Positions 4,096-53,163 of a DNA stretch of 64,000 bases are shown one piece after another. This DNA comes from a virus: positions 60,899-124,898 of IMG/VR virus record IMGVR_UViG_3300031463_000001. One strand, given 5' to 3'. Position 1 is the first letter of the stretch, and each line of letters opens with the position of its first letter. The notes below the pieces were generated by a model. The model was not told the DNA's origin and ran no database searches. It saw only the letters and a program-made list of their open reading frames with translations. The translations under genes and the position numbers were made by a program.

Positions 4096-4371
4096 TCATT
4101 CTTTTTTAGAATTCATATCACTCCAACATTTAGCACATAAATGCATATCATGATCTTTATCATAAAAATAAGTTTTTTTACCACAAAAAGTACAATAGGT
4201 TTCTTTATTTGTATCAATTAAAGTATCCACTTCAAATTTCTCAAAATTTTCATCATATGTAGTAACATCAATTTTTATACCTAAATAAGCTAGATCAATA
4301 TTATATTTTTCGGCAAACTTTTCAATAGTTTTCTCAAACTCTTTTTTAAGATTATTTAATTCATCATGCAT
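4096..4371 (-). CDS. Hypothetical protein with C-terminal zinc finger
   Basis: CTFC...CAKC; AGGAGG RBS. Confidence 0.65.
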   Translation of the reverse strand: MHDELNNLKKEFEKTIEKFAEKYNIDLAYLGIKIDVTTYDENFEKFEVDTLIDTNKETYCTFCGKKTYFYDKDHDMHLCAKCWSDMNSKKE

Positions 4372-5791
4372 ATGGATACACCTCCTTATTTAAATCCAAA
4401 GTAACTTTGATAGGTTTATTTTTTATTTCTTTTTTTACTTTAAAAGTTCCTGGATCTTTTTCACCTAACATTTTAAAAGCAGCTAATCTAAATTGACAAC
4501 ATCCACATTCACCACAACTTATTATTTTGTTATTTTCAATTTTTGGATAATAGCATGAGGTAACATATTCATATGGTACACCTAGTTTTAATCCTAAACT
4601 TACTATTTCGTGTTTTATGAGATGAATAAGAGGAGCTTTAAATCTAACATTAGTATACCAATTTAAAGAATATTTCAAAGTTTTATCAAGTGAATCAATA
4701 AAAGTAATATTGTTATCTGGATATGCTATTCCATCCATTTGTTGAGCTCCCAATGCTACAGTATCAATTTTATTCATTTCAGCCAATGCAGCTGCAATAG
4801 AAGCAAAAATCATATTTCGGTTTGGAACATATGATAAAGTAGATTCAGCATCTTTTATTTTTAATTTAGGATTAGCTTTCTTTTGGCTTAATAAAAGTGA
4901 TGCATTTTTGAAAGGTTTAAATAAAGGTCGAGCATCATAAATCATTAAAGGAGCCTTTAAATGCTGAGCAATTTTTTTAACTGAAAATGTTTCTGCTTTT
5001 TCTGCTGCTTGTCCATAATTAAAATGCAAAAGATTCACTTGGTATCCTATATAATTATAGAGATAAGCAGTAGTAGTACTATCTATTCCTCCACTACAAA
5101 TTACTAAAACTTTTTTATTTGGTTCTCTTCTAAATAATGAGAAACTATCTATTTTTTCATTTTGATATCTAAATAAAGTGTATGGAGGTACTTCTTTTAT
5201 ATCGTTGTTATATTTTGAAAACATTTCTTTTAAAGAAGCTATAATTATTCCATTTCTAGAAGTAATTACATAATGGAGAGGCATAAAATTACTTCCCCAC
5301 CACAAACTTTTATCTTTTAAATTGTAAGCTATTATTGCATAACTTCCTTCAATTTCTTTTAATCCCTCAATTATTCCTTTAATAGAAAATAAAGAAGGTA
5401 AGATAGAGGAATCAACTTTAGATTCAGTTTTAATTTTATATTTTTTTCTTAATTCTAAATCATTACTAATTCCACCGTTATGAACTACTATCCACTCATC
5501 ATTTTGAAATGGTTGAAGATTAATAATGGAATCTCCTGCTCCTTGCATATATTCAATTTCAGGCATTGCTCTACTATTACCTAGAATGACTTTATTATGA
5601 AAAGATATTTCAGATAATCTTTCTTTTATAGGATTTATTTCTTTATCTTGAATTTTTGTGAAATAACTATTATCCAAAGACTTTATTAGAATACCAAATC
5701 CATCTCTTCCTCTTATCCTTAAATTATCTATCATTTGAATTATAGTTTCTTCTTTCTCGTCTACTCTATAAAATCCTACTATCCCACACAT
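4364..5791 (-). CDS. queC: Gat-QueC: class II glutamine amidotransferase fused to 7-cyano-7-deazaguanine synthase
   Basis: N-terminal MCGIVG, RGRDG and VHNG (Ntn GATase); C-terminal SGGIDS PP-loop, YGQ, YVPNRN, YPD, SCY...CGECGCC. Confidence 0.92.
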   Translation of the reverse strand: MCGIVGFYRVDEKEETIIQMIDNLRIRGRDGFGILIKSLDNSYFTKIQDKEINPIKERLSEISFHNKVILGNSRAMPEIEYMQGAGDSIINLQPFQNDEWIVVHNGGISNDLELRKKYKIKTESKVDSSILPSLFSIKGIIEGLKEIEGSYAIIAYNLKDKSLWWGSNFMPLHYVITSRNGIIIASLKEMFSKYNNDIKEVPPYTLFRYQNEKIDSFSLFRREPNKKVLVICSGGIDSTTTAYLYNYIGYQVNLLHFNYGQAAEKAETFSVKKIAQHLKAPLMIYDARPLFKPFKNASLLLSQKKANPKLKIKDAESTLSYVPNRNMIFASIAAALAEMNKIDTVALGAQQMDGIAYPDNNITFIDSLDKTLKYSLNWYTNVRFKAPLIHLIKHEIVSLGLKLGVPYEYVTSCYYPKIENNKIISCGECGCCQFRLAAFKMLGEKDPGTFKVKKEIKNKPIKVTLDLNKEVYPYA

Positions 5792-5848: not shown

Positions 5849-7021
5849 TTAAAACAATGACTCAGGTAAATCAATATCTGCTTCTTCAATTTCTCCAGAT
5901 TGAGGTTTTATTCTTTTTTCTTTTTTAGATTTTTCTGTTTCTTCTTCCATCATTAAATTTTCATATTGATTTATTGATTTTAGAAACTCTAAATATTCTT
6001 TCCAACTTTCAATATCTCCTTTTATATAAGGTTCCCAAGAACGTTTTCTATCTTTAAGAACATTTTTAATATATTGGACAGCCCAATAAGGATTTTTCTT
6101 TATAATGTCTTCTCCTTTAGGAAATGGTCCTTTTAATATTTCTGTTGCATATCTATAAGAAAGTTCAGGATTTTGAGCAATTATATCTTCTCCCTCAGGA
6201 AAAGGTTCTTTGAAAAGTTCTGCATATCTAAATGCATTCTCTGGAGTAGAAGTAAATATATGTTTATATTGAAAGGGAGCAAAAGTTATTTCTTCTATAT
6301 ACCTAAAAGCAAGTTCAATATCTTGGGCAATAATTATTTCACCTTCAGGAAATGGGCCCTTTAAAATATCTTTAGCATAATTAAAAACATTTATTGGTGA
6401 GGTTGAATAAGGAGCAAGTAAATTAGCTTTTTCTATATCTTTATTTTCTAGAGCTTCTTGAAATTCTTTTTCAAGTTGGGATGAATTTGTTAATAAAGTT
6501 TTTAATGTAGGATCATTTAATTCAGGATGATCTTTATAAAACTCATTAAGTTTTCCCATTTTTTTAAGATTTTCTATATAGTCATATAAAACTTCTTTAT
6601 TCTTAATAATAGCTTTTTCACCCTCTTTAAATCTAAACCAAAATATTGTCGCATAATAATATGAATAAACTCCGCTAGAAGCAATAGCTGGTTCGCCTGG
6701 AGGCCATTTACGGTGTATGACATCTTTAGCATAAAGATAGCTATATTTACTACTTTTCATTATTTCTTTTTCACCTAATGGAAATCTTTCTCTTAATACT
6801 TTACGTGCATATTCATAACTTGTATCTGGACGAGAGGCTACAATTAATTCCTTTTTATAAGGAAGAGATTTTTGATTTTTTATGGCATAATTTAAAAGAT
6901 TATAAGGATCTTTAGAATACATATAAAGTTTATCCATCATTAACTCATCATTAGTTTCTATAGTTTTTTTAAAAACGTCCTCTAATTTATTTGGATCTTT
7001 TAACAAATCTTCTATATTCAT
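5849..7021 (-). CDS. Repeat-protein family member: two fused units plus an acidic tail
   Basis: N-cap, repeats and C-cap (NEFYKDHP), followed in frame by a second N-cap (ALENKDIEKANLLAP) and more repeats. Confidence 0.9.
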   Translation of the reverse strand: MNIEDLLKDPNKLEDVFKKTIETNDELMMDKLYMYSKDPYNLLNYAIKNQKSLPYKKELIVASRPDTSYEYARKVLRERFPLGEKEIMKSSKYSYLYAKDVIHRKWPPGEPAIASSGVYSYYYATIFWFRFKEGEKAIIKNKEVLYDYIENLKKMGKLNEFYKDHPELNDPTLKTLLTNSSQLEKEFQEALENKDIEKANLLAPYSTSPINVFNYAKDILKGPFPEGEIIIAQDIELAFRYIEEITFAPFQYKHIFTSTPENAFRYAELFKEPFPEGEDIIAQNPELSYRYATEILKGPFPKGEDIIKKNPYWAVQYIKNVLKDRKRSWEPYIKGDIESWKEYLEFLKSINQYENLMMEEETEKSKKEKRIKPQSGEIEEADIDLPESLF

Positions 7022-7689
7022 ATTTTAACCTCTGGATGATCTTTTAAGAATTCATCTAATTTGTTTATGCTTTTAAGAAACTCAACATAAGGTTCTAACC
7101 AATCTGAATTTATTATAGCATCCTCTCCTTTAATAAATCTATCTTTTAACACATCTTTAGCATAAAGATAAGAAGATTCTGGATCTTTAGCAATAGCATC
7201 TTCTCCTTTTGGAAAAGGACCTTTTAACACATTTTTAGCATAAAGATAAGAAGTATAATAATATTGAGCAATAGCATCCTCTCCTTTTGGAAAGGGACCA
7301 TGTAAGACATTATAAGCATAAAGATAAGAAGCAGAATCACCTTGGGCAATAGCATCCTCACCTTTAGGCCACGGTTTATGTAAAACACTTCTAGCATACA
7401 TAGCTGCATGGTCAGGATTTTGAGAAATGACATCTTCTCCTTTAGGAAAAGGTTTATGCAAAATTTCCATAGCATAATAGATAGCACTTTGTGAATTTCT
7501 AGCAATTATATCTTCCCATTCATCTTTAATTTTTCCTTTAACTATTTCATGTGCATACCTATAAGTCAACCATGGATCTTTGACTATTGGAACTAACATT
7601 TCTGCTAATTTTTTATTTTTATCTTCAAGGGCATCTTCTAATAATTCTTTAACTTTATTAGGATCTTTTAATAAATCTGAAATGTTCAT
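7018..7689 (-). CDS. Repeat-protein family member (about 6 repeats)
   Basis: MNISDLLKDP; repeated YAxxVLxGPFPKGEDAIA; LDEFLKDHPEVKI. Confidence 0.92.
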   Translation of the reverse strand: MNISDLLKDPNKVKELLEDALEDKNKKLAEMLVPIVKDPWLTYRYAHEIVKGKIKDEWEDIIARNSQSAIYYAMEILHKPFPKGEDVISQNPDHAAMYARSVLHKPWPKGEDAIAQGDSASYLYAYNVLHGPFPKGEDAIAQYYYTSYLYAKNVLKGPFPKGEDAIAKDPESSYLYAKDVLKDRFIKGEDAIINSDWLEPYVEFLKSINKLDEFLKDHPEVKI

Positions 7690-7742
7690 TCTTCCTTTTT
7701 ATAAAATCAAAAACTACATTTATGAATTATGTTTTTCTTTAA

Positions 7743-8186
7743 CTATACTTTATCTTTTACCTCTGGATGATCTTTTAAGAACTCATCTAGTTTACCTATC
7801 TCTTTTAAGAAATTAACATAATTATCTAACCAAATTGACTTTATTATTGTTTTTTCTCCTTTAATGAATCTATCTCTCAAAATATTCTCTGCATAATAAA
7901 ATCCCACTATAGCATCTTTGGACATAATATCCTCACCTTTAGGAAAGGGATCTCTTATAACATCTCTGACATACCAATAAGTCACATCTGCATCTTGGAT
8001 AATGATATCTTCCCACTCATCTTTAATTTTACTTTTAACTATATCTCTAGCATATTTATAAGTTAACCTTGGATCTTTAACTATAGGAATTAAAGTTTCT
8101 GCTACTTCTTTATTTTCCTTGTCAATAGCTTTTTCCAAAACTTTTATTACTTTATCTTTATTTTTTAACAGATCAGATATATTCAT
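7743..8186 (-). CDS. Repeat-protein family member
   Basis: Same N-cap, repeats and C-cap. Confidence 0.92.
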   Translation of the reverse strand: MNISDLLKNKDKVIKVLEKAIDKENKEVAETLIPIVKDPRLTYKYARDIVKSKIKDEWEDIIIQDADVTYWYVRDVIRDPFPKGEDIMSKDAIVGFYYAENILRDRFIKGEKTIIKSIWLDNYVNFLKEIGKLDEFLKDHPEVKDKV

Positions 8187-8774
8187 ATTTTAACCTTTGG
8201 ATAATCTTTATAGAACTCATTTAGTTTACCTCGTGATTTAAGAAAGCTGATATACTCTTTACGATAATTTCTAATAATAGCCCCTTCACCTTTAATGAAT
8301 CTATCTTTTAATACATTTGTAGCATAATAATAAGAATAATAAGCATTTAAAGCAATAGTATTTTCTCCTTTAATGAATCTATCTTTTAGCACATCTTGAG
8401 CATAATGATATGAACAAAAAACATCCCTAGCAATAGCATTCTCCCCTTTAGGGAATGGTTTCTGTAAAACCTTTTTTGCATATACATAAGAATATTCATA
8501 ATCTTGAGCAATAGCCTCCTCTCCTTTAAGGAATGGTCCATGTAAAACATAGTTAGCATAATAGTATGAATTTTGTGAATCCTGAGCAATAATATCTTCC
8601 CACTCATCTTTAATTTTACCTTTAACTATATCACTTAGCATATAAATAAGTTAACCTTGGATCTTTGGCTAGTGGAATTAAAGTTTCTGCTAATTCTTTA
8701 TTTTTCTTATCAATAGCCATTCTTAATACTTTATTAACTTTATCAGAATCTTTTAACAAATCCACTATATTCAT
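8183..8774 (-). pseudogene. Repeat-protein family member with a +1 frameshift near 8633
   Basis: ATG at 8774 gives MNIVDLLKDS...LTYLYAK then TGA; removing one base from GCTAAGTGATATA restores YAKDIVKGKIKDEW. Confidence 0.8.
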
Positions 8775-8805
8775 AATTTAACCTCTGGATGATCTTTTAA
8801 GAACT
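8748..8805. repeat. 58-bp gene-junction repeat, first of four near-identical copies (others around 9286, 9639 and 10151; weaker copies at other junctions)
   Basis: ATCTTTTAACAAATCCACTATATTCATAATTTAACCTCTGGATGATCTTTTAAGAACT; the 35-nt part starting TCATAATTTAACC is identical at 8771, 9286, 9639 and 10151. Confidence 0.9.
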
Positions 8806-9289
8806 CATTTAATTTATTTATCTCTTTTAAGAAATTAACATAATCAGTCAAATAAAGAAGATCACTAATTATAATCTTCTCACCTTTAATGAATCTATCC
8901 TTTAAAATTTTTCTAGCATACAAATATGACTCAGTAGCAAAATGGGAGATAACCTCTTCCCCTTTAGGAAAGGGACCTTTTAAAATATTCTCAGCATAAT
9001 TAAGAGCATTTATATGATCGCTAGCAATAGCCTCTTCTCCTTTAGGCCACGGACCTTTTATAATTTTAGCAACATACATATGAGTGACATGAGTGTTTTG
9101 AATAATGATATCTTCCCACTCTTCCTTTACTCTACCTTTAACTATTCTTTCTGCATAACGTTCTACCAACCATGGATTTTTGACTATTGGGATTAAAGCT
9201 TCGGCTAATTCTTTATTTTTCTTATTAATAGCGTCTTCCAAAATTTCTCTTGTTTTATTTGGATCTTTTAACAAATCCACTATATTCAT
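8771..9289 (-). CDS. Repeat-protein family member
   Basis: N-cap, repeats and C-cap; ATGA overlaps at both ends. Confidence 0.92.
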   Translation of the reverse strand: MNIVDLLKDPNKTREILEDAINKKNKELAEALIPIVKNPWLVERYAERIVKGRVKEEWEDIIIQNTHVTHMYVAKIIKGPWPKGEEAIASDHINALNYAENILKGPFPKGEEVISHFATESYLYARKILKDRFIKGEKIIISDLLYLTDYVNFLKEINKLNEFLKDHPEVKL

Positions 9290-9642
9290 AATTTAACCTC
9301 TGGATGATCTTTTAAGAACTCATCTAATTTATTTATTTCTTTAAGAAAATCCACATACTCATTTAACCACATTGACTTTATTATTACACCTTCTCCTTTA
9401 ATAAAAGGTTTATGTAAAATGTCTATAGCATAGGAACAAGAACTTTGCGGATCTTGAGCAATAATATTTTCCCACTCATCTTTAACTGGTTTTTTTATTA
9501 GGTAAGCATAACCATAAGTAAGCCAAGGATCTTTGGCCACTGGAACCAACAATTCGGCTAATTCTTTATTTTTATCTGCAAGGGCATCTTCTAATATTTC
9601 TCTAGCTTTATCAGAATCTTTTAACAAATCCTCTATATTCAT
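9286..9642 (-). CDS. Repeat-protein family member (short)
   Basis: N-cap, two repeats, C-cap. Confidence 0.92.
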   Translation of the reverse strand: MNIEDLLKDSDKAREILEDALADKNKELAELLVPVAKDPWLTYGYAYLIKKPVKDEWENIIAQDPQSSCSYAIDILHKPFIKGEGVIIKSMWLNEYVDFLKEINKLDEFLKDHPEVKL

Positions 9643-10154
9643 AATTTAACCTCTGGATGATCTTTTAAGAACTTATTTAATTTATGTTTCCTTTTAAGAA
9701 ACCAAACATAATCATCCAACCAAATTGACTTTATTATTACATTTTCTCCTTTAACAAATCTACCCTTTGATACATCCTTAGCATAATAATAAGAATAATA
9801 AGGATCTCTAGCAATAACATCCTCTCCTCTAATAAAAGGTTTATGTAAAACGTCTTTTGCATATATATAAGAATATTCAGAATTTTGAGCAATAGCATCT
9901 TCTCCTTTAGGCCAAGGTCCATGTAAAATATCTCTAGCATAATAGCAAGAACTCCATGGGTCGTGAGCAATGATATCCTCCCATTCATTTTTGATTTTTC
10001 CTCCAACTATTTTTCTAGCATATAAATGAGTTAAATAAGAATCTTTGACGATTGGAATTAGAGCCTCAGCCAATTCTTTATTTTTATTTACTAATGCATA
10101 TTTCAAAACTTCTCTAGCTTTATTTGAATCTTTTAACAAATCCACTATATTCAT
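9639..10154 (-). CDS. Repeat-protein family member
   Basis: N-cap, repeats and C-cap. Confidence 0.92.
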   Translation of the reverse strand: MNIVDLLKDSNKAREVLKYALVNKNKELAEALIPIVKDSYLTHLYARKIVGGKIKNEWEDIIAHDPWSSCYYARDILHGPWPKGEDAIAQNSEYSYIYAKDVLHKPFIRGEDVIARDPYYSYYYAKDVSKGRFVKGENVIIKSIWLDDYVWFLKRKHKLNKFLKDHPEVKL

Positions 10155-10589
10155 AATTTAACCTCTGGATGATCTTTTAAGAACTCATCTAGTTTACCTA
10201 TTTCTTTAAGAAACTTAATATACACATTTAACCACCTTGACTTTATTATTACACTCTCTCCTTTAATGAATCTTCTTTTTAATATATCTATAGCATAATA
10301 ATAAGAATGCCATGGATCTCTAGCAATAACATCCTCTCCTTTAATAAAAGGTTTATGTAAAACAGTATAAGCATAAGCATATTGCGGAATCAATATCTTG
10401 GGCAATTATATCTTCCCACTCATCCTTAATTTTACCTTTAACTATTTCTCTAACATATAAATAAGTTAAATAAGGATGTTTGGCTATAGGAATTAACATT
10501 TCAGCTAATTCTTTATTTTTATTTTCAATAGCCATTTCTAATGCTTCCTCTAATTTATTTGGATCTTTTAATAAATCTACTATATTCAT
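10151..10589 (-). pseudogene. Repeat-protein family member with a +1 frameshift near 10382
   Basis: Split into ORFs 10353-10589 and 10151-10405; removing one A from TCCGCAATATGCT gives QDIDSAYAYAYTVL, which matches the repeat register. Confidence 0.8.
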
Positions 10590-11023
10590 ATAGCCTCTGG
10601 ATGATCTTTTAAGAACTCTTCTAATTTATTTATTTTACTAAGAAACGTCTTATATTTATTCAACCAAAACTCCTTACTTACGATAACCTCTTCTCCCTCA
10701 ATGAATCTACCTTTTAGAATTTCTTTAGCATAACTATATGAGTATCCATCATTTTTAGCAAAAATCTTTTCACCTTTAGGGAATGGTCCTTTTAAAACAT
10801 TATACGCATAGGCATAGGACATATATATGCTTTGAATAAGTATATCTTCCCACTCATCTTTGATTTTTCCTTTAACTATATTACCTGCATAATAATAAGT
10901 TAACCAAGGATCTTTAACTATAGGAATCAATATCTCGGCTAATTTTTTGTTTTTATCATCAATGATTTTTTCTAATACTTTTTTGACTTTATTCGAATCT
11001 TTTAATAAATCTTCTATGTTCAT
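10586..11023 (-). CDS. Repeat-protein family member (first gene of the array)
   Basis: N-cap, repeats and C-cap EEFLKDHPEAI. Confidence 0.92.
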   Translation of the reverse strand: MNIEDLLKDSNKVKKVLEKIIDDKNKKLAEILIPIVKDPWLTYYYAGNIVKGKIKDEWEDILIQSIYMSYAYAYNVLKGPFPKGEKIFAKNDGYSYSYAKEILKGRFIEGEEVIVSKEFWLNKYKTFLSKINKLEEFLKDHPEAI

Positions 11024-11275
11024 AATAAATATACTAAAAAAGATTATAATTTATATCCTATAAGTTTCCCTATTAAAAACTTTTTTTTGAAGGATTTCTT
11101 TAAACATTATTATATAAATATAATAATCTTTTGTTATTTTTTTGGTTTTTTCTTAGATTCCTCTATAATCAATATTTGTTCTTATATTAAATTTAAAATA
11201 AAATATCTCTTTAAAAATTACCTTATTATTATATAATTACTTATTATAGATTAGTTTATAATAGATCTTATTATA

Positions 11276-11510
11276 AGAAGTATTTTTAGATAAGAATAAA
11301 CATTAGGAAGTATTTTTAGAATTAGAGATAACTTAGTGAGAGGTGGGATTTTGATTTAGAAGTTTCTTAGTGGGAGGTGGGATTTTGATTTAGAGATAAT
11401 TCTAGTAGGTTTTTAAAGTTTTGGCAGGTGGGAGTTTTAAAGTTTTGGTGGGAGTTTGGACCCGCCCAACCACTTCGATCCCACTTGGGTCTCATCCACT
11501 TAGTCCACCT
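11276..11510. repeat. Non-coding short direct repeats with GTGGG/CCAC motifs next to an AT-rich tract
   Basis: CTTAGTG(A/G)GAGGTGGGATTTTGATTTAGA at 11332 and 11366; TTTTAAAGTTTTGG at 11411 and 11435; GAAGTATTTTTAGA twice; switches to C-rich CCACTT repeats at about 11461. Confidence 0.75.
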
Positions 11511-11786
11511 AATTTAAGATCCAAAACCCAAAAAAAGAATAGGAACCACCAACAAAGTACAACAGATAAGGAAGAGGAATTAAAGGAATTAGATAATTCG
11601 TTCGAGCTATAATAGCAAAATCGGAAGAAGTTATTAAAAAATAAATAGAATTTGTTTTGGGAGAAGAAAAAGGAATTAGGAATCAAAAATAAAAAACTAT
11701 TAAAAAACAAATAGAATTTGAAAATGGGATAAGATAGAATTTACCCTAGTGAAAACAAGGAAAGCACAAAAAAAATAGGATTTGGT

Positions 11787-23115: not shown

Positions 23116-23204
23116 AAGCTTCCTCCAATAATGATATTACACATATGGTTTAGTTTTTTTTGCCCTTTCGAATTATCGTTTATGATTTAAATAGAAGAAT
23201 TAGT

Positions 23205-23813
23205 ATGAAAAAAGAAAGTAAAATAAATATTGTTGATTTATTAAAAGATCCAAATAAAGCTAAAGAAGTATTAACAATGGCTATAGATAATGGAAATAAA
23301 GAATTAGCCGAATTGTTAATTCCTATAGCCAAAGATCCCTATTTAACGTATAGTTATGCCTACTTAATAAATAAACCAGTTAAAGATGAGTTTGAAGATA
23401 TTATTGCTAAAAATTCTTTTTATTCTTATCAATATGCATTAGATATTTTACAGGGACCTTTCCTAAAAGGAGAAGATGCTATCTCTAAAAGTTCAGAATA
23501 TTCTTATAGATATGCCTTAAATATTTTACATAAACCATTTCCTAAGGGTGAGGATGCCATTACTAAAAATTCTTTTTATTCTTATCATTATGCTGCAGAT
23601 GTTTTACATAAACCATTTCCTAAAGGAGAAAATACTATTGCTGGAGATTCTTTTTATTCTTATAATTATGCTAAAGATATATTAAAAGATAGATTTATTA
23701 AAGGAGAAAAAACAATAATAAATTCAGAATGGTTAAATGATTATATTAGGTTTCTTAAAGAGATAAATAAACTAGATGAATTCTTAAATGATCATCCAGA
23801 GGTTAAATTATGA
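23205..23813 (+). CDS. Repeat-protein family member
   Basis: MKKESKINIVDLLKDP; NSFYSYxYA repeats; LDEFLNDHPEVKL. Confidence 0.92.
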   Translation: MKKESKINIVDLLKDPNKAKEVLTMAIDNGNKELAELLIPIAKDPYLTYSYAYLINKPVKDEFEDIIAKNSFYSYQYALDILQGPFLKGEDAISKSSEYSYRYALNILHKPFPKGEDAITKNSFYSYHYAADVLHKPFPKGENTIAGDSFYSYNYAKDILKDRFIKGEKTIINSEWLNDYIRFLKEINKLDEFLNDHPEVKL

Positions 23814-24166
23814 ATATATCAAAGTTGTTAAAAGATCCAAAAAAATTTGATGATTTTTTGTATCATGAAATTCAACATAACGATTTTTCAACATCTAGAA
23901 TACTTATTCCTTATACAAAAAATCCAGCAATTATTCACGCTTTTCTAAAAAAATTTAAAGTTAAAATTCCTTCATTAGAAAATTTAATTACTCAAAATCC
24001 ACATTTGGCATTAAGTTATATTGATAATGTTATTAAAGATCGCTGGCTTCCTGGAGAAGAAGCCATTCTTAAAAATGAAGAAGATTTGGAATATTATAAA
24101 GACTTCCTTAAATCTATTGGTAAACTAGACGAATTCTTAAAAGATCATCCAGAGGTTAAGAATTGA
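23810..24166 (+). CDS. Repeat-protein family member
   Basis: MNISKLLKDP...LDEFLKDHPEVKN. Confidence 0.9.
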   Translation: MNISKLLKDPKKFDDFLYHEIQHNDFSTSRILIPYTKNPAIIHAFLKKFKVKIPSLENLITQNPHLALSYIDNVIKDRWLPGEEAILKNEEDLEYYKDFLKSIGKLDEFLKDHPEVKN

Positions 24167-30123: not shown

Positions 30124-30171
30124 GTGAACATAGGTGAATTCTTAAAAGATCATTCAGAGGTAGAATTATGA
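30124..30171 (+). other. Collapsed empty family cassette (15-codon mini-ORF)
   Basis: GTG AAC ATA GGT GAA TTC TTA AAA GAT CAT TCA GAG GTA GAA TTA TGA = MNIG joined directly to EFLKDHSEVEL*, overlapping the next ATG. Confidence 0.75.
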
Positions 30172-30728
30172 ACATAGAAGATTTATTAAAACATCCAGAA
30201 AAAGCAAGAACGTTTTTGGACAAGGCTATTTTTGGTGGAAACAAAAAATTAGCTGAAATTTTAATTCCAATAGTTAAACATCCTTATTCAACTTATTTAT
30301 ATGCAAAAGAAATAGTTAAGGGAAAAATAAAAGATGAATGGGAATATATTATTGCTCAAGATCCTTATGCTTCTCTTGATTATGCCTTTAACATTCTAAA
30401 AGGTCCATTTCCAAAAGGAGAAGATGCAATTGCTAGAGATTCATATACTTCTTATAATTATGCTGTTATTTTAGAAAGACCGTGGCCAAAGGGAGAGGAT
30501 GTTATTGCTAGAGATCCAAGATTTGCTTATTATTATGCTAGATATGTGTTGAAGGATAGATTTCCAAAAGGAGAAAAAGAAATTATTAGTAGTGAGATTA
30601 CTGATCCGGGTAATGATTTTGGTGAAAATGGTGAATCAGGTTTTTCTTCTTATGTTAAGTTTTTGAAATCAATAAATAAATTAGACGAATTCTTAAAAGA
30701 TCATCCGGAGGTAAAAGATAGAGTATGA
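30168..30728 (+). CDS. Repeat-protein family member
   Basis: N-cap, repeats and C-cap. Confidence 0.92.
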   Translation: MNIEDLLKHPEKARTFLDKAIFGGNKKLAEILIPIVKHPYSTYLYAKEIVKGKIKDEWEYIIAQDPYASLDYAFNILKGPFPKGEDAIARDSYTSYNYAVILERPWPKGEDVIARDPRFAYYYARYVLKDRFPKGEKEIISSEITDPGNDFGENGESGFSSYVKFLKSINKLDEFLKDHPEVKDRV

Positions 30729-31189
30729 ATATAGAAGATTTATTAAAACATCCAGAAAAAGCACAAATGGCTTTGCGAGAAGCTATTTGGAATAATGATG
30801 CAAAATTAGCAGAAGCTTTAATACCAATAGCAAGAGATCCACATTTAACTCTTAATTATGCTCAAAATATAGTTAAGGGAAAAGTTAAAATTGAGTTTGA
30901 AGATATTATAGCCCGAGATGGAGAAGCTTCTTTTTATTATGCTTATGAAGTCTTAAATGGTCCCTTTCCTAGAGGAGAATATGCAATTGCTGAAAATGAA
31001 GATCTTTCATTAGATTATGCGATTAAAGTATTAAAGGATAGATTTCCAAAAGGAGAAGAAGCAATTATATATGTAGCTTTAAAGCATGATGATGATGTAT
31101 ATTTATGGAGATATACGGATTTTCTTAAAGAGATTGGTAAACTAGACGAATTCTTAAAAGATCATCCTGAGGTAAAAGATATAGAATGA
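30725..31189 (+). CDS. Repeat-protein family member
   Basis: N-cap, repeats and C-cap. Confidence 0.92.
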   Translation: MNIEDLLKHPEKAQMALREAIWNNDAKLAEALIPIARDPHLTLNYAQNIVKGKVKIEFEDIIARDGEASFYYAYEVLNGPFPRGEYAIAENEDLSLDYAIKVLKDRFPKGEEAIIYVALKHDDDVYLWRYTDFLKEIGKLDEFLKDHPEVKDIE

Positions 31190-31710
31190 ACATAGGTGAT
31201 TTACTAAAAGAAGGAGCGGATAGTGTTTTCGATAAAGCAATAAAAGAAAAAAATAAAGAGTTAGCAGATTTTCTAATTAAGTTTATAAAAGATCCTTTTC
31301 TTCTTTTCGATTATGCAGCTAAATTTAATGAAAAATTAAAACCTGAATTTGAAGATATTATTGCTAAAAATTGGGATACATCCTTTTATTATGCACTTCA
31401 TTTTAAAAATCCTTTTCCTAAAGGTGAAGATATAATGGCAAAAGATTTGTATACTGCCTATCATTATGCAGCTGATGTTTTACAAGGACCATTTCCAAAA
31501 GGTGAACCTATAATTTCTCAATTTCCATATTCATCATATTATTATGCTAAAAGGATATTGCATGATAGATTTCCAAAAGGAGAAAAAGCAATTATTGATA
31601 GCAAAGATCAAGAAAATGATGAAGATTATTTTAGACTCTATATTAAATTTTTAAAATCCATTAATAAACTAGATGAATTCTTAAAAGATCATCCAGAAGT
31701 TAAATTATGA
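31186..31710 (+). CDS. Repeat-protein family member
   Basis: N-cap, repeats and C-cap. Confidence 0.92.
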   Translation: MNIGDLLKEGADSVFDKAIKEKNKELADFLIKFIKDPFLLFDYAAKFNEKLKPEFEDIIAKNWDTSFYYALHFKNPFPKGEDIMAKDLYTAYHYAADVLQGPFPKGEPIISQFPYSSYYYAKRILHDRFPKGEKAIIDSKDQENDEDYFRLYIKFLKSINKLDEFLKDHPEVKL

Positions 31711-32897
31711 ATATAGAAGATTTGTTAAGGGATCCAAATAGGGTTAAAGAATTATTAGATGAAGTTATTAATAATGGAAACAAAAAATTAGCTAAAGTTT
31801 TACTTCCATTAGTTGAAAAAGAGTCAACTAGATATGGTTACATAGAGTCATTATTGAAGGGTAGAGAAATTGTAGCTGATTTCGAATCACGATTACCTGT
31901 TTTGATTAAACAGTATAAGGCTCACAATCCAGAATTATCTGAAAGTGAAGCCGAAGCTAAGATTCGTGAATTGAATCAATATGATCCAACGGGTTTAAAA
32001 GCTACATATACACCCTGGATTGTAAAACAGTATTTGGAAGATTCATCATTCGATTTGGATTTAGCTAAACAAGTTTTGAAGGATCTTGAAAAGGTTGTTT
32101 TACATAAGAAACTACCTGCAGGATTCGATATTGGAAAGTTTAACTTAAATGAATTGAAATCGAAACTTCAACCAATACTTGAGCCAATTGAAGAGTCGGA
32201 AAAGGAGAAGGAAGAGATTAAAAAAGAAGGTCCAATAGGTCAATCATTAATCTCTGAAGAGGGTTATGAAATTATTGAAGTTACTGATCCAAAAGATAGT
32301 GTAAGATTCTGTAAAAAATATCATATTAGGTCTTGGTGTGTAAAGGATTTGGAGTATGCAGAGTTTTACGTTCCTCTCTACTTCGTTTTAAAGAATGGTT
32401 CGCCAAAAGGTGCATGGTCAGAATATGATAAAAAGCTCAGTAATCGACAAGATTTAGATGAGTGGGATCTTGATGAAAGAGATTTTATAGCAAAACTATT
32501 AAGAAAAGTTAGACCTAATTTAACAATAAAGACAAAAGAAGAAATGAAAAGGGAAGCTTTGAATTCTCCGGAGAAAGCTTATAATTATGCATTTAAGGTT
32601 AAAGGAAGATTTCCAGAAGGAGAACCTATAATAGCAAAAAGTCCTAAATATGCTTATTATTATGCAAGAGATGTTATTAAAGAAAGATTTCCTAAAGGGG
32701 AGCCTGCTATAGCAAAAGATTTTTATTTTGCGTGTCTGTATGCAAAATTTGTTATTAAAGGAAGATTTTTAGAAGGAGAAGCTGTAATAATAAATTCAAA
32801 TTATTTTGATGATTATGTTGAGTTTCTTAAAGAAATAAATAAACTAGATGAGTTCCTAAAAGATCACCCAGAAGTTAAAAATTACAAGTCTTTTTAA
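31707..32897 (+). CDS. Repeat-family member with a large inserted domain
   Basis: N-cap, then about 230 aa of unrelated sequence (DPTG...YTPWIVK...SWCV...PLYFV), then repeats and C-cap. Confidence 0.88.
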   Translation: MNIEDLLRDPNRVKELLDEVINNGNKKLAKVLLPLVEKESTRYGYIESLLKGREIVADFESRLPVLIKQYKAHNPELSESEAEAKIRELNQYDPTGLKATYTPWIVKQYLEDSSFDLDLAKQVLKDLEKVVLHKKLPAGFDIGKFNLNELKSKLQPILEPIEESEKEKEEIKKEGPIGQSLISEEGYEIIEVTDPKDSVRFCKKYHIRSWCVKDLEYAEFYVPLYFVLKNGSPKGAWSEYDKKLSNRQDLDEWDLDERDFIAKLLRKVRPNLTIKTKEEMKREALNSPEKAYNYAFKVKGRFPEGEPIIAKSPKYAYYYARDVIKERFPKGEPAIAKDFYFACLYAKFVIKGRFLEGEAVIINSNYFDDYVEFLKEINKLDEFLKDHPEVKNYKSF

Positions 32898-37452: not shown

Positions 37453-39411
37453 ATGGAGAACAAAGATATAAATAAGGTGTTGAAAAAGATAGAAGATTCC
37501 TATGGGGTACGTATCCGCAAATTGAACGATTTTAAAGAACAGGTGGATAGTATCCCATCGGGATCTCTTATTTTAGATGAAGCACTAGGAGTAGGAGGAT
37601 ATCCAAGGGGAAGATTAGTTGAGGTTTATGGAGAATTTAGTTCGGGTAAATGTGTTTCAGCAAATTCATATCTTTTTACTGAAGAGGGTCTTTTAACATT
37701 AAAAGAGTTGAATCCTTCTTTAAAAAATCAAACTTTTAAAGAATTAAAAATTTCTCTTTTAACTAATAAATTTCTTGCTAAAAGTAAATATATATATAAT
37801 GATGGATTTAAAAGAAGTTTAAAAATTTTTACTGAAAGTGGTTTTGAATTGATAGGATCTCTAGAAACAACTAAAGTTATGGTTTTAAGTGGTGAAGGTT
37901 TAAAATGGGTTCCTCTTAAAGATTTGAAAATTGGAGATGTAATTTTAATAGGAAAAGAAGGAAATGTTTTTGGCAAAACAAAAATAAAAAAATCTTTAAA
38001 ACAAATTTATGAATGGGGAAAGAGTTATGGAAAATCTTTTAATAATAAAAAATTTCCAATTGAAATAAGAAAAGCTCCAAAGGAACAGGTGATTGCTTTT
38101 TTGGGAGGATTGATTGAATCTGTGGGAAGTATATATGAGTCTTGTTTGTTTTTTAGTTTACCTGAAGAATGGATTAAAATTATTCAATTGTTTCTTTTAG
38201 ATTTTGGAATTGTTTCTTATAGAAAAGTGTTAATTAATAGTCATTTAAATACTTTGTTTGTAATTAAAAACAATTTGATAAGATTTAAATTAATTTTTAA
38301 TAAATATTGTAAATTTTGTAAAGATATAGTTTCTTCTGAAGGACTTGAAATGATTCCATTTGGATGGATTTTAATGGAAAAATTTAAGAAATTTATTAAG
38401 CCTGATTATAGGATGGATTTAAGCAGAAAAAATGCTACAAGATATGAGATAATTGAATTACTTAAATTATTTTCTAAATATAGAGGAAATCCTTTATATA
38501 CTTTATTAAGAGAGGTGGTTGTAGGAAATTATGTTTTTGATGAAGTAAAAGAATTATCTATTATAGAGAAAGAGGAGGTTTGGGATTTAACAATTCCATT
38601 TTTTCATAATTTTGTTGCTAATGGAATTGTGGTTCATAATACTCTTTTAGGTTTATTGGGGATAGCAAGTGTTCAGAAAAAAGGAGGTAAAGCATTATTT
38701 ATTGATGCAGAATATACATTAGATTTAAAATGGGCTAAAACTTTAGGAGTAAATATAGATGAATTGTATGTAATTCAAGAAAATTGTTTGGAAACAGTAA
38801 TAAATATTATAGAAAAAATTTTAGATGAATCTTTGTTTGACTTAATTGTGGTTGATTCAGTAACAGCTTTAATTCCTCAAAAAGAATTAAATGGAGAGAT
38901 GGAGGATCAAAATATAGCTTTGCAAGCTCGATTAATGTCACAAGCTTTACGAAGGTTGGTGGGTAAATTAAGTAAAAGTAAAGCAGTGATTCTTTTTATA
39001 AACCAGCTAAGAGATAATGTAGGAGTGTTGTTTGGAGATCCTTCAGTTACTCCAGGAGGTAGAGCTTTAAAATTTTATTCTTCAGTTAGAATTAAAGTAG
39101 GTAAAGAATCTGGAAGTGATATTAAGAAAGATGGGATTAAGATAGGACATAGATTAAAATTTAAAGTTGAAAAAAATAAAGTAGCTGCTCCTTTTAAAGA
39201 AGGAAGTACTTTATTGTATTATGGTAAAGGTATAGATGAAATAAGAGAACTTTTAGAGTTTGGAATGTTGAAAAATGTGATTAAATTAACTGGAAATACA
39301 TATATTTATAGGGAATCTAAGTGGGTTGGATTTGAAAAAATGTTAGAGGAATTTAGAAATAATAACGATTTAGTAGCAGATCTTAAAAAAGATCTAAATT
39401 TGTCTTCATGA
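37453..39411 (+). CDS. recA: RecA recombinase with an intein
   Basis: LGVGGYPRGR.VE.YG..SSGK, FIDAE, VVDSV, ARLMSQALR, FINQLR, TPGGRALKFYSSVR, KNKVA.PF. Confidence 0.95.
   Translation: MENKDINKVLKKIEDSYGVRIRKLNDFKEQVDSIPSGSLILDEALGVGGYPRGRLVEVYGEFSSGKCVSANSYLFTEEGLLTLKELNPSLKNQTFKELKISLLTNKFLAKSKYIYNDGFKRSLKIFTESGFELIGSLETTKVMVLSGEGLKWVPLKDLKIGDVILIGKEGNVFGKTKIKKSLKQIYEWGKSYGKSFNNKKFPIEIRKAPKEQVIAFLGGLIESVGSIYESCLFFSLPEEWIKIIQLFLLDFGIVSYRKVLINSHLNTLFVIKNNLIRFKLIFNKYCKFCKDIVSSEGLEMIPFGWILMEKFKKFIKPDYRMDLSRKNATRYEIIELLKLFSKYRGNPLYTLLREVVVGNYVFDEVKELSIIEKEEVWDLTIPFFHNFVANGIVVHNTLLGLLGIASVQKKGGKALFIDAEYTLDLKWAKTLGVNIDELYVIQENCLETVINIIEKILDESLFDLIVVDSVTALIPQKELNGEMEDQNIALQARLMSQALRRLVGKLSKSKAVILFINQLRDNVGVLFGDPSVTPGGRALKFYSSVRIKVGKESGSDIKKDGIKIGHRLKFKVEKNKVAAPFKEGSTLLYYGKGIDEIRELLEFGMLKNVIKLTGNTYIYRESKWVGFEKMLEEFRNNNDLVADLKKDLNLSS
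37651..38640 (+). mobile_element. Intein (330 aa) with a degenerate LAGLIDADG homing endonuclease, in the RecA P-loop
   Basis: Begins CVSANS after SSGK; ends VWDLTIP..HNFVANGIVVHN before Thr; AFLGGLIESVG motif. Confidence 0.92.
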
Positions 39412-51275: not shown

Positions 51276-51870
51276 ACGTCAAATATCTATGCAAACTTTA
51301 GCTAAGTTTGATGTTTTTGAAATTGAAAAAGGGAAATGTAATTATTTTGGCGATTCTATAAAAGTTGATGATATTAGGGAAGGAGTTTATTTTCCTCTTT
51401 ATTATTTTAATAAAAAATTGTTGGGGTATGCATTAAGAAAATTACATGATTCAAATGAAAAGTGGGTTTATTCAAAATCGTTTAAAAGAAATCATTTTTT
51501 ATATGGGTTTGTTGAAAATTTTAAAGCTATTAAAGAAAAAAAAGAAGTTATTTTGGTGGAAGGATTATTTGATTGTTTAAAATTGGTAGATGAAGGTTTT
51601 ACTAATACTGTAAGTAGTTTTGGAACTTTATTTACTTTTTATCATTTTGTATTATTATATCCATTAGTTAATAAAATAATTTTGATACCTGATTCGGATG
51701 AAGGTGGAAATAAAATGATAGAAAAAGTTAAGGAAATAATAAATAATAAATTAGAATTAGATATAATAAAATTACCTAAAAATTATGATCCAGATGATTT
51801 TTTAATTAAATATGGGAAAAAAGCTTTTTCAAATTTGATTTTAAAAAAAGGAGGAGAGTATGCTAAGTGA
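51235..51870 (+). CDS. DnaG primase catalytic (TOPRIM) part, lacking the zinc finger
   Basis: LYG, ILVEG.FD, N.V...GT, DSDEGG, DPDD. Confidence 0.88.
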   Translation: MFPSHQIQMQLLSKRQISMQTLAKFDVFEIEKGKCNYFGDSIKVDDIREGVYFPLYYFNKKLLGYALRKLHDSNEKWVYSKSFKRNHFLYGFVENFKAIKEKKEVILVEGLFDCLKLVDEGFTNTVSSFGTLFTFYHFVLLYPLVNKIILIPDSDEGGNKMIEKVKEIINNKLELDIIKLPKNYDPDDFLIKYGKKAFSNLILKKGGEYAK

Positions 51871-52162
51871 TGAAGATAAGATGGATAATACGCAGGAATT
51901 TAATTATTTTGAGAAATTGTCTAATTTTTCTGCAGAAAATATGAAAATGAATTCTGTTGATTTACCTAAGATTAAAATTAAACTTAGAGGTAAAGAATAT
52001 GAAATATTTGCTACTGATCCTTTAGGGGCAATATTTTGTTCTTTGATTGAATTAAATAATAAAAAAGTAGATCAAATTTTAAATAGTTTTAAAATAACAT
52101 TAAAAGATGTGAAGGGTAATATTATATTTCCTGTAAAGGAGAATAAAAATGGAAGAAAATAA
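51860..52162 (+). CDS. Hypothetical protein
   Basis: AGGAGG RBS. Confidence 0.6.
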   Translation: MLSDEDKMDNTQEFNYFEKLSNFSAENMKMNSVDLPKIKIKLRGKEYEIFATDPLGAIFCSLIELNNKKVDQILNSFKITLKDVKGNIIFPVKENKNGRK

Positions 52163-52799
52163 ACCCTCTCGTATAGAAAAAGTTTTTTTGGATACTTTAA
52201 ATGTTTCATGGGGAAATACTGAAGTATTAAATTCTTCGGGTTGGTATTTTTTATATTATGGGAATTTGAATTGTTTAAGAAACTTTTTAACTTTTTTACC
52301 TTCTAAATTGGATGCTTACAAATTATGGCAACCTTCTTATAAAGTAAAAAAAGAAAAAAATAGATCAGTAATAGAAACTAAACGATTACTTTTTCCAGGT
52401 TATGCTTTTTTTAAGACTTTAGATATAATGAACGTGGATTGTTTTATAAAGGATTATTTTAAAGATTTTTATTTTTATTTTTTAAAGAAAGGAAGAGAAT
52501 TTGCAACGTTAACTGCTGAGGAAGAAGAATGGATTTTAAAATTAGAAGAAATTTGGACTAAAATAGTAGAAGAACATTGTAAATTTAAAAAAGGAGATGT
52601 TGTAAGGTTAAAAAATGCTTATTGGGGAAATTTAGTAGGTAAAGTAGTAGATATAGATGAACCTAAACAAATTGCAACGGTAGAGTTTGTATTTTTTCAA
52701 ACTCGTACTATATTGTTTAAAGTAGATTTGAATACTTTGGAAAATTTAACTCCACCTGAGGAATTTTTAGGAATTCTTTTGGATGAAAAAGATTATTAA
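52149..52799 (+). CDS. NusG/RfaH-family transcription antitermination factor
   Basis: WY..., LLFPGY.F (NGN domain); FKKGD.V.L....G..G.V (KOW). Confidence 0.85.
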   Translation: MEENKPSRIEKVFLDTLNVSWGNTEVLNSSGWYFLYYGNLNCLRNFLTFLPSKLDAYKLWQPSYKVKKEKNRSVIETKRLLFPGYAFFKTLDIMNVDCFIKDYFKDFYFYFLKKGREFATLTAEEEEWILKLEEIWTKIVEEHCKFKKGDVVRLKNAYWGNLVGKVVDIDEPKQIATVEFVFFQTRTILFKVDLNTLENLTPPEEFLGILLDEKDY

Positions 52800-53145: not shown

Positions 53146-53163
53146 TTTTTTATAGGAGGAGCA

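What the first reader, a model, noticed from the sequence alone, without database searches (positions are those of the whole stretch)
5849..11023. Cassette-like array: genes act as spacers between near-identical 58-bp junctions encoding C-cap, RBS, stop/start and N-cap
Seen: nine family genes in tandem, nearly all joined by ATGA overlaps. The junction ...TTCTTAAAAGATCATCCAGAGGTTAAATTATGAATATAGTGGATTTGTTAAAAGAT is nearly invariant at 8771, 9286, 9639 and 10151 (spacings 515, 353 and 512 bp), even at synonymous sites, while gene interiors diverge. The PEV codons supply the GAGGT SD for the next gene, and TTAAAAGAT occurs in frame at both ends of these genes. Inference: any crossover between junctions adds, removes or shuffles whole expressed units, giving an accordion or integron-like array possibly driven by the phage RecA. 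The same junction recurs in the arrays near 23.8 kb and 30.1-31.7 kb.
Basis: partly seen in the sequence, partly recalled or inferred. Interest (0 to 1): 0.8.

Follow-up and report, generated by a model that had tools for sequence, protein, structure and literature searches.

The report
Recombining tandem gene array in phage
A virus from hot-spring and sediment samples carries rows of similar small helical-repeat genes whose boundaries are almost letter-for-letter identical, and related viruses show that whole genes and repeat units have been gained, lost and swapped by ordinary homologous recombination rather than by an integron-like machine.

Summary
Nine family units lie head to tail on the minus strand (5849-11023). 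Seven are intact and two are frameshifted. Seven of eight boundaries are ATGA overlaps. The 56-bp junction occurs five times with at most 3 mismatches, against 0 expected.

Junction conservation exceeds protein constraint. At amino-acid-identical codons, 169 of 170 comparisons are codon-identical in the junction core, against 211 of 304 in the flanking caps. The three longest direct exact repeats of the 124.9-kb record are these junctions.

Related metagenome contigs differ in gene number and order. They show whole-gene indels with crossovers inside the junction, chimeric genes, N-cap patches and indels in steps of the 78-nt repeat. A more distant lineage uses a different junction design, which is uniform within that lineage.

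No tyrosine recombinase, serine recombinase or reverse transcriptase was found, and the junction forms no hairpin. An automated scan found no strong excess of breakpoints at junctions.

Best reading: a translationally coupled tandem multigene family evolving by unequal crossover and gene conversion. The junction is conserved through cap residues, the ribosome-binding site, the stop/start overlap and local homogenisation. The accordion idea is supported; the integron analogy is not.

Other first-stage notes and follow-ups of this scan describe the same family in this genome. No look-alike on other DNA turned up.

The parts
10586..11023 (-). W1, first gene of the array (145 aa); it is not preceded by a junction
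   Evidence: ortholog R1 in L017
10151..10589 (-). W2, a family unit split by a frameshift (78 aa + 84 aa; 439 nt)
   Evidence: Its N-cap is 88-90% identical to R9, the ninth gene of the relative's array
9639..10154 (-). W3 (171 aa)
   Evidence: no clear ortholog in L017/L016
9286..9642 (-). W4 (118 aa, one repeat)
   Evidence: ortholog R4, interior 97-98% identical
8771..9289 (-). W5 (172 aa); modelled as an all-alpha solenoid
   Evidence: pLDDT 95.9, 13 helices; the tail HPEVKL lies beyond the last helix
8183..8774 (-). W6, a family unit split by a frameshift (47 aa + 152 aa; 592 nt); absent from the relative L017
7743..8186 (-). W7 (147 aa); a chimera relative to L017: R6-like from 8120 to 7895, with a tail and downstream spacer like those after R8
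7690..7742 (-). 53-nt spacer, the only boundary that is not an overlap; orthologous to the spacer before R9
7018..7689 (-). W8 (223 aa, five repeats); positional ortholog of R9 (119 aa). They differ by 312 nt = 4 x 78
5849..7021 (-). W9 (390 aa), the long last gene with a family N-cap; ortholog R10 at 96-97% identity
8748..8803 (-). junction core W5>W6: C-cap end, GAGGT, ATGA overlap, N-cap start
   Evidence: 0 mismatches; part of 61-63-nt exact repeats
9263..9318 (-). junction core W4>W5
   Evidence: 0 mismatches; 64-nt exact repeat shared with 10128
9616..9671 (-). junction core W3>W4
   Evidence: 1 mismatch
10128..10183 (-). junction core W2>W3
   Evidence: 0 mismatches
6995..7050 (-). junction core W8>W9
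   Evidence: 3 mismatches
30124..30171 (+). remnant in which an N-cap start is fused in frame to a C-cap end (VNIGEFLKDHSEVEL*), directly before the next family gene
30168..32897 (+). second array in the window (186, 154, 174 and 396 aa) with variant junctions; reordered in L028/L031
23160..24166 (+). two-gene array with the same junction; colinear in the relative L025
37453..39411 (+). RecA homolog interrupted in one open frame (likely an intein); a candidate recombinase for the exchanges
   Evidence: PF00154: positions 1-67 and 66-262 in a single 655-aa open frame

Best explanation
The array is a tandem multigene family. Each gene encodes a capped helical-repeat protein: a 63-aa N-cap, one to five 26-aa repeats, and a C-cap. 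The genes are probably read as one translationally coupled operon.

The 'junction' is where three constraints overlap on the same roughly 56 nt:
- the last helix and tail of one protein;
- the Shine-Dalgarno GAGGT plus the overlapping stop/start ATGA that hands ribosomes to the next gene;
- the first nine codons of the next protein.

These constraints keep the junctions similar enough for homologous recombination. Gene conversion and unequal crossover between paralogs then remove the remaining synonymous differences, which yields 61-64-nt perfect direct repeats.

All genes share one register. An in-register exchange in the junction, the caps or the 78-nt repeats therefore leaves intact, expressed genes. 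It can add or remove whole genes, make chimeras, or change the repeat number.

Shown here: the architecture, the synonymous excess, the lineage-specific junction designs, and the structural differences between relatives with their breakpoints. Inferred: translational coupling, the enzyme responsible (possibly the phage RecA), and any adaptive value of the turnover.
For: Architecture; fold.

Overlaps and SD: 7 of 8 ATGA overlaps. GGAG/GAGG lies upstream of 13 of 18 family junctions and 40 of 77 other long ORFs, against 8.7% of random sites.

Synonymous excess: 169 of 170 in the core against 211 of 304 in the flanks.

Codon choice: the junction uses codons that are rare in this genome. TTC is 8% of Phe codons in the background but fills 16 of 19 junction positions. 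GAG is 21% in the background but 14 of 19 at the junction. Other arrays vary at these sites, so the sites are not strictly fixed by function.

Array dialects: identity of the first 27 nt is 0.891 within arrays and 0.843 between arrays. Only 3 of 5000 label shuffles give as large a difference.

Exact repeats: the junctions are the three longest direct exact repeats of the record. Of family exact repeats of 35 nt or more, 15 of 18 lie in junction zones, which are 18% of the arrays.

Relatives:
- Same-locus arrays hold 9 units (window), 10 (L017/L016), 9 plus a fragment (L021) and 7 (L030).
- The A2 and B3 whole-gene indels have crossovers in the junction core or at +35..+40.
- W8 and R9 differ by exactly 4 x 78 nt, and W7 is a chimera.
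- Array E shows 78- and 81-nt indels and a C-cap crossover.
- The L021/L023 lineage has a different junction tail, uniform in arrays at two loci. Seven of its 8 N-caps sit in two adjoining lineage-only parts of the tree, and the group label needs 2 changes against a shuffled mean of 7.6.

RecA is present.

Phage precedent: T4 amplifies genes by recombination at 6-10-bp microhomologies (PMC9391042, passages read).
Against: - The automated breakpoint scan shows no clear excess at junctions: 9 inside, 21 outside and 17 unresolved, with a zone share of 0.20. The junction is therefore not shown to be the preferred crossover site.
- Window junctions are about as similar to those of the close relative L017/L016 as to each other. 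Ongoing within-genome homogenisation since that split is therefore not demonstrated.
- One two-gene array is unchanged in its relative (L025).
- No expression data exist. Only assembled contigs were available, so no variants within a population could be seen.
- The record is 76% complete by CheckV, so a recombinase could lie in the missing part.
- The order of genes across 61-64-nt repeats rests on the original assembly. An independent contig set of the likely source run breaks at these junctions.
Confidence: 0.7

Rival explanations
1. The junction is a selected adaptor: a standardised recombination-and-expression module kept identical because shuffling, gain and loss of whole binder genes is itself advantageous. 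On this reading the array is a homologous-recombination diversity generator, functionally like antigenic-variation cassette systems.
For: - The junctions are the three longest direct exact repeats of the record.
- Whole-gene indels have crossovers inside the junction.
- The N-half of W2 has its nearest relative at position 9 of the related array.
- An in-frame TTAAAAGAT flanks every gene, and one remnant shows that it has been used.
- The family takes 15.1% of the record.
Against: - Breakpoints are not clearly enriched at junctions.
- Many exchanges are intragenic.
- Two of nine units are frameshifted, as expected for passive birth-and-death evolution.
- A related lineage manages with a different, non-overlapping junction.
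- No population data are available.
Confidence: 0.17
2. Junction identity is pure purifying selection on the two cap peptides and on translation signals (SD, spacing, start context). Recombination plays no role in keeping the junctions alike.
For: - The N-terminal peptide and its codons also open at least four non-family genes elsewhere in the record.
- The last 12-14 nt (GAGGTTAAATTATG) persist in L017 even where the C-cap protein differs (R3>R4).
- The organism uses SD sequences generally.
Against: - The same synonymous sites vary between arrays and lineages: CCA/CCG/CCT, GAG/GAA, GTT/GTA, TTA/TTG, AAT/AAC.
- Each array has its own dialect.
- The L021 lineage has a different tail design that is uniform across two loci.
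- Mosaic genes and patches are seen directly.
Confidence: 0.1
3. The array is an integron-like or other site-specific cassette system: a dedicated recombinase excises and inserts gene cassettes at the junction.
For: Only the regular alternation of conserved junctions and variable genes.
Against: - No PF00589 or PF00239 match in the record, while the controls gave matches in 14 and 12 of 14 genomes.
- No reverse transcriptase.
- The junction has no significant secondary structure as RNA (z -0.65 to +1.34, 5 junctions) or as DNA on either strand (z -1.17 to +0.02).
- Breakpoints are spread through the genes.
- The junction consists of direct repeats, not inverted ones.
Confidence: 0.03

Closest known systems
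Recombination-driven gene amplification in phage T4 (dmd-tifA amplification; PMC9391042, passages read)
   Same: Tandem copy-number change in a phage genome through homologous recombination between short direct repeats that flank the unit, with no site-specific enzyme.
   Different: In T4 the repeats are chance 6-10-bp microhomologies, the copies are identical, and the events arise under laboratory selection. Here the repeats are 56-64-nt functional gene boundaries, the units are diverged paralogs, and the differences are seen between natural relatives.
Poxvirus genomic accordions and homogenisation of gene arrays (PMC6115191, abstract seen in the listing; Elde et al. 2012, seen only as a reference)
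   Same: Viral tandem gene arrays that expand, contract and homogenise by recombination.
   Different: The poxvirus arrays are recent copies of a single gene. This array holds old, diverged paralogs that differ in repeat number and are joined by overlapping stop/start codons.
Integron gene-cassette arrays (recalled, not from a call)
   Same: Variable genes alternate with conserved boundary elements, and the genes are read in one direction.
   Different: There is no IntI-type recombinase, no attC hairpin, and the boundaries are coding sequence. See the membership test.
Translationally coupled operons with ATGA stop/start overlaps and an SD inside the upstream gene (textbook knowledge, recalled)
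   Same: A four-base overlap, with GAGG 7-8 nt before the ATG and lying in the last codons of the upstream gene.
   Different: Here the same coupling module is repeated at nearly every boundary of a paralog array and also specifies the conserved protein caps.
Tandem gene arrays evolving by unequal crossover and gene conversion, e.g. in Trypanosoma brucei (PMC1855330, abstract seen in the listing)
   Same: Polycistronic tandem paralogs with concerted and birth-and-death evolution.
   Different: This is a viral genome of about 125 kb, and the units are small repeat proteins that also slip internally in 78-nt steps.

Membership tests
Integron cassette array | IntI-type tyrosine recombinase encoded beside the array | tested here: not met
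   PF00589 gave 0 matches in the 124,898-bp record, while controls matched in 14 of 14 genomes. The record is 76% complete by CheckV, so absence is not proven.
Integron cassette array | attC sites: imperfect inverted repeats that fold as single-stranded hairpins at each cassette boundary | tested here: not met
   Five junctions folded as RNA gave z -0.65 to +1.34. Two junctions folded as DNA on both strands gave z -1.17 to +0.02. The junction holds direct repeats, not inverted ones.
Integron cassette array | Excised circular cassettes | not testable with these tools
   Only assembled contigs of the runs were available.
Tandem multigene family under unequal crossover / gene conversion (genomic accordion) | Paralogs in tandem, in the same orientation | tested here: met
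   Nine units in the focal array and 36 family ORFs or fragments in the record.
Tandem multigene family under unequal crossover / gene conversion (genomic accordion) | Copy number and order differ between close relatives | tested here: met
   Focal locus: 9, 10, 9+ and 7 units. Array A: one gene lost and one gained. Array C: 4 against 3. Array E: reordered. The two-gene array is unchanged.
Tandem multigene family under unequal crossover / gene conversion (genomic accordion) | Breakpoints lie in sequence shared by the paralogs and keep the register | tested here: met
   Crossovers fall in the junction core, at +35..+40, in the C-cap and in the repeats. Shifts are 443 and 593 nt (one gene) and 78, 81 and 312 nt (repeat units).
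Tandem multigene family under unequal crossover / gene conversion (genomic accordion) | Concerted evolution: paralogs of one genome share states that orthologs lack | tested here: inconclusive
   Met for the distant lineage: the L021/L023 junction design is uniform across two loci, and 7 of 8 N-caps sit in two adjoining lineage-only parts of the tree (2 label changes against a shuffled mean of 7.6). Array dialects also exist. Against the close relative L017/L016, however, paralog and cross-genome junction identities are alike, and many genes pair as orthologs.
Translationally coupled operon | Stop and start codons overlap or abut, with an SD inside the upstream coding sequence | tested here: met
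   Seven of 8 boundaries are ATGA overlaps. GAGG/GGAG lies at -20..-4 in 13 of 18 family junctions.
Translationally coupled operon | Downstream translation depends on upstream translation; a single transcript | not testable with these tools
   No RNA run was listed. The promoter/terminator scan was at chance level: 33 found against 39.1 expected.
Diversity-generating retroelement | Reverse transcriptase with a template/variable repeat pair | tested here: not met
   PF00078 gave 0 matches in the record.

The most novel reading that the evidence does not exclude
The gene boundary is a built-in, self-propagating adaptor. Every gene ends with the next gene's ribosome site and start. Every gene is also flanked by the same in-frame 9-15-nt word. 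Any exchange between any two family members, at any of the five arrays, therefore yields an intact and expressed gene. On this reading the virus carries a homologous-recombination engine that continually re-sorts a library of about 36 binder-like proteins. That would be a phage counterpart of antigenic-variation cassette systems, maintained by selection for evolvability.
Probability: 0.18. Interest if true: 0.8.

Novelty: new variant of a known kind. Interest (0 to 1): 0.52.

Why it matters
Tandem amplification and contraction is known as a fast adaptive route in poxviruses and in laboratory-evolved T4. Natural, long-standing arrays of diverged paralogs in a tailed virus are less well documented. 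This locus and its metagenomic relatives give a natural series of whole-gene gains and losses, chimeras and repeat-number changes that can be mapped to the base.

The boundary shows how protein caps, a ribosome-binding site and a stop/start overlap can be packed into one stretch. That stretch then doubles as recombination homology. If the proteins are binders aimed at host factors, as their solenoid fold and variable repeat number suggest, the arrangement would explain how such a repertoire is renewed without any dedicated machinery.

There is also a practical point. The 61-64-nt repeats break short-read assembly graphs, so such arrays are likely to be mis-assembled or under-reported in viral metagenomes.

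Tried and rejected
- Megablast of the array against 50,697 phage records gave no match. A tblastn of W8 found only a 45-residue match in Salicola phage SCTP-2, so no annotated relative was available.
- Searching viral contigs with the neighbouring Gat-QueC protein found nothing. The family alignment found one viral contig and 19 metagenome loci.
- The genome-contig scan gave only two short MAG contigs, which were not used further.
- Sequencing runs: no RNA holder was listed, and all four runs are kept as contigs. The many 'joints' have short sides (21-44 nt) at 88% likeness and sit among paralogs. I treat them as cross-mapping, not as evidence of variants or circles. Contigs cannot show rare variants.
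- The sigma-70 promoter and terminator scan was at chance level and placed nothing at the junctions.
- The Foldseek search of PDB found no match at E <= 0.001. The top rows were designed helical-repeat proteins at E about 0.2, so no fold family is claimed.
- The Pfam hit HTH_35 (39.6 bits for W8) comes from a 17-residue motif repeated in the repeats. I do not read it as a DNA-binding domain.
- I expected breakpoints to be enriched at junctions. The automated scan did not show this clearly, so that stronger claim is dropped.
- My first C-cap identity table contained at least one artefact of short free-end alignments: W6 against R10 at 100%. I rely instead on the sliding-window maps.
- The ungapped three-way picture for the W6 indel was out of register upstream because the tails differ in length. 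That event is therefore described only as bounded by the two junction regions.

Full report
**Setting.** The window is the second half of a 124,898-bp IMG/VR virus record (28% G+C, CheckV estimate 76% complete). An HMM built from six window members finds 36 family ORFs or fragments in the record. They cover 18,921 nt, or 15.1% of it, mostly in five tandem arrays. The proteins are modular: a 63-residue N-cap beginning MNIxDLLKD, one to five 26-residue repeats (…SYxYAxxVLxGPFPKGEDAI…), a variant last repeat, and a C-cap ending …KLDEFLKDHPEVK(L or DKV). An AlphaFold2 model of W5, made with ten paralogs as the alignment, is a confident all-alpha solenoid (mean pLDDT 95.9, 13 helices). The last six residues, HPEVKL, lie beyond the final helix. 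Foldseek finds no solved structure at E <= 0.001.

**Check of the observation.** The focal array holds nine units on the minus strand, W1 to W9. Two of them, W2 and W6, are split by a one-base frame error into 78 + 84 and 47 + 152 residues. Seven of eight boundaries are ATGA overlaps. The exception is a 53-nt spacer before W8. The stated spacings of 515, 353 and 512 bp are correct. TTAAAAGAT occurs 42 times in the window against 9.3 expected. It stands as a pair 44 nt apart at every junction, once in the C-cap of the upstream gene and once in the N-cap of the downstream gene, in frame in both. Junction variants recur in the arrays at 23.8 kb and 30.7-31.7 kb.

**Is the junction more conserved than the proteins require?** Yes. 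I compared the five near-identical junctions pairwise, counting only codons that encode the same amino acid. In the core (last ten codons of the upstream gene plus first nine of the downstream gene) the codon itself is the same in 169 of 170 comparisons. In the remaining cap codons it is the same in 211 of 304. The ten pairs come from five sequences and are not independent, so the p-value printed there is inflated. The contrast is nevertheless large.

The core also uses codons that are rare in this genome. Phe TTC is 8% of Phe codons in 77 non-family ORFs but is used at 16 of 19 family C-caps. Glu GAG is 21% in the background but 14 of 19 at the junction. GAG is explained by the Shine-Dalgarno sequence. 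The organism plainly uses SD sequences: GGAG/GAGG lies upstream of 40 of 77 other long ORFs against 8.7% of random sites, and upstream of 13 of 18 family junctions.

The other sites are not fixed by function. CCA/CCG/CCT, GTT/GTA, TTA/TTG and AAT/AAC all occur at other junctions of the same record and in relatives. Each array has its own 'dialect': identity of the first 27 nt is 0.891 within arrays and 0.843 between arrays, and only 3 of 5000 label shuffles do as well. The focal junctions are the three longest direct exact repeats in the whole record (64, 63 and 61 nt). Of exact family repeats of at least 35 nt, 15 of 18 lie in junction zones, which make up about 18% of the arrays.

**Related genomes.** A family alignment retrieved one viral contig and 19 metagenome loci. 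L017 and L016 are identical over a 3061-nt overlap. They flank the same locus at 88-97% identity. Their array reads 146, 144, 155, 118, 174, 144, 171, 252, 119 and 390 aa. The window's array reads 145, 146 (frameshifted), 171, 118, 172, 197 (frameshifted), 147, 223 and 390 aa.

A sliding 60-nt map gives these relationships:
- W1=R1, W4=R4 (interior 97-98% identical) and W9=R10.
- W7 equals R6 over 8120-7895, but carries the tail and downstream spacer that follow R8 in the relative. Part of R6, all of R7 and most of R8 are therefore missing from the window, through an in-register exchange in the last repeat or C-cap.
- W8 is the positional ortholog of R9. It has the same upstream spacer and a 98-100% identical C-part from 7145, but is 312 nt (4 x 78) longer.
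- W6 has no counterpart.
- The N-half of W2 is 88-90% identical to R9, the ninth gene of the relative, and only about 75% identical to R2.

Two more distant contigs have an array at the same place, upstream of the Gat-QueC gene, which is about 80% identical. They carry nine units plus a fragment (L021) and seven units (L030).

**Other arrays.** L018 covers the array at 44.6-48.2 kb of the record, with flanks 94-97% identical. It lacks gene A2. The crossover lies within the junction core, since the sequence switches from the A1>A2 junction to the A2>A3 junction between the SD region and about +24. L018 also has an extra gene, B3, with a crossover at about +35 to +40 of the N-cap. In addition, the first 25-110 nt of B5 match A6 rather than A5, a conversion-like patch.

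L019 has three genes where the record has four, and those genes are mosaics of the four. L028 and L031 show the array at 29.5-32.9 kb of the window in a different order. They carry 78- and 81-nt indels inside one gene and a crossover in the C-cap about 30-60 nt before the stop.

At 30124-30171 the window itself carries a 48-nt remnant reading VNIGEFLKDHSEVEL*. This is an N-cap start fused to a C-cap end across the similar words GATTTATTAAAAGAT and GAATTCTTAAAAGAT, directly in front of the next family gene. One array, the two-gene one at 23160-24166, is colinear with its relative L025.

**Concerted evolution.** In L021, and in L023 from the same metagenome (which maps to another array locus), the boundary is built differently. 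The tail is extended (…HPEVKEED stop), the SD GGAGGA lies in the added codons, and four bases separate stop and start. This design is uniform in the junctions seen at both loci. The window's record uses its own design at all five arrays. The L021 paralogs are 72-91% identical along their whole length. Seven of its eight N-caps sit in two adjoining lineage-only parts of the tree, and the group label needs only 2 changes against a shuffled mean of 7.6. The boundary design is therefore a property of the genome, not of the locus, as expected if paralogs exchange sequence.

Against the close relative the picture is different. Many genes pair as orthologs (W1-R1, W4-R4, W7-R6, W9-R10, A1-B1, A3-B2, A6-B6). 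Window junctions are no more alike among themselves than they are to the L017/L016 junctions. Homogenisation since that recent split is therefore not demonstrated.

**What it is not.** The record has no match to the phage-integrase, resolvase or reverse-transcriptase families, while the control genomes did give matches. A quarter of the genome may be missing, so this absence is not proof. The junction has no significant fold as RNA (five junctions, z -0.65 to +1.34) or as DNA on either strand (z -1.17 to +0.02). Its repeats are direct, not inverted. These results fail two defining features of integrons.

**Is the junction a crossover hotspot?** Not shown. An automated scan looked for changes of best-matching diagonal between six relative contigs and the record. 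It gave 47 breakpoints: 9 wholly inside junction zones, 17 unresolved and 21 outside, with zones covering 20% of the scanned span. L028 and L031 carry the same events, so some are counted twice. Whole-gene indels do have junction breakpoints, but exchanges plainly occur all along the genes. The junction is simply the longest perfect homology.

**Mechanism proposed.**
- Shown: the modular architecture; the overlap of cap codons, SD and stop/start; the synonymous excess; the array- and lineage-specific boundary designs; and natural rearrangements that keep the register.
- Inferred: the array is read as a translationally coupled operon. The three overlapping constraints keep boundaries similar enough for homologous recombination. 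Gene conversion and unequal crossover then make them identical. Because all units share one register, the products are intact genes.

The phage encodes a RecA homolog interrupted within one open frame. Whether this enzyme, a host enzyme or replication slippage does the work is untested. In T4, recombination between 6-10-bp microhomologies is enough to amplify genes in tandem (PMC9391042, passages read). Poxvirus arrays likewise expand and homogenise by recombination (PMC6115191, abstract in the listing).

**Caveats.**
- The order of genes across 61-64-nt repeats depends on the original assembly.
- Contigs of the likely source run (X1), assembled independently, cover the array with 0-5 differing letters but end at or near 7022, 8775, 9290, 9661 and 10155. 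These are the junctions, as expected for repeats longer than the assembler's word.
- The colinearity of W1-W5 with R1-R5 supports the order.
- No raw reads, RNA data or long reads were available.

**Verdict.** The 'integron-like' part is rejected. The case is a well-resolved viral example of a known evolutionary mode with an unusual, compact boundary design.

Noticed in passing
window 37453-39411 (+): RecA homolog whose Pfam match is split (positions 1-67 and 66-262) by about 330 residues within one 655-aa open frame. This is probably an intein.
   Followed up: partly
window 4364-5791 (-): A glutamine-amidotransferase/QueC fusion (QueC 8e-52, GATase_7 1e-10) lies directly downstream of the array. 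Such a gene suggests a 7-deazaguanine pathway (recalled). It also marks the same locus in L021 and L030.
   Followed up: partly
G000 record ends (first and last 211 nt; the last 211 nt = window 63790-64000): The first and last 211 nt of the record are identical at 210 of 211 positions, although the record is classed as linear and 76% complete. It may be a circular or terminally redundant genome.
   Followed up: partly
window 10151-10589 and 8183-8774 (-): Two of the nine units carry a one-base frame error. Contigs of the likely source run agree with the window on either side of both sites (pieces 3, 7 and 8). These are probably real pseudogenes or split genes.
   Followed up: partly
G000 51539-55236 (upstream of the window's start): Four non-family genes (192, 190, 188 and 111 aa) open with the same peptide, and three with nearly the same codons (M-N/K/D-I-S-D-L-L-K-Y-P). 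They are not preceded by a family C-cap.
   Followed up: partly
window 11024-11786: The 760-nt non-coding stretch upstream of W1 contains blocks that are 95-100% identical to L017 (around 11750, 11660 and 11285), set among much less conserved sequence. It may hold the array's promoter or another element.
   Followed up: no
G000 51446 / 85141 (window 24243) and G000 59605 / 60916 (window 18): Exact repeats outside the family: a 62-nt inverted pair and a 55-nt direct pair, with further 31-38-nt pairs beside the latter. They suggest other paralogous genes.
   Followed up: no
L021 708-5646: The same-locus array of a more distant relative has paralogs that are 72-91% identical over their whole length and repeated sizes (252, 174, 227, 174, 252, 201 aa). 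This looks like a recent expansion or strong homogenisation.
   Followed up: partly
proteins P0008, P0017, P0036, P0040, P0041, P0043, P0045; L034, L035: Family members sit on contigs binned into MAGs labelled Aenigmatarchaeota, Nanopusillaceae, Nitrososphaerota, Pacearchaeota and Omnitrophota. The binning is inconsistent, so the host stays open. Bacterial-type RecA and general SD use are seen in the record.
   Followed up: no
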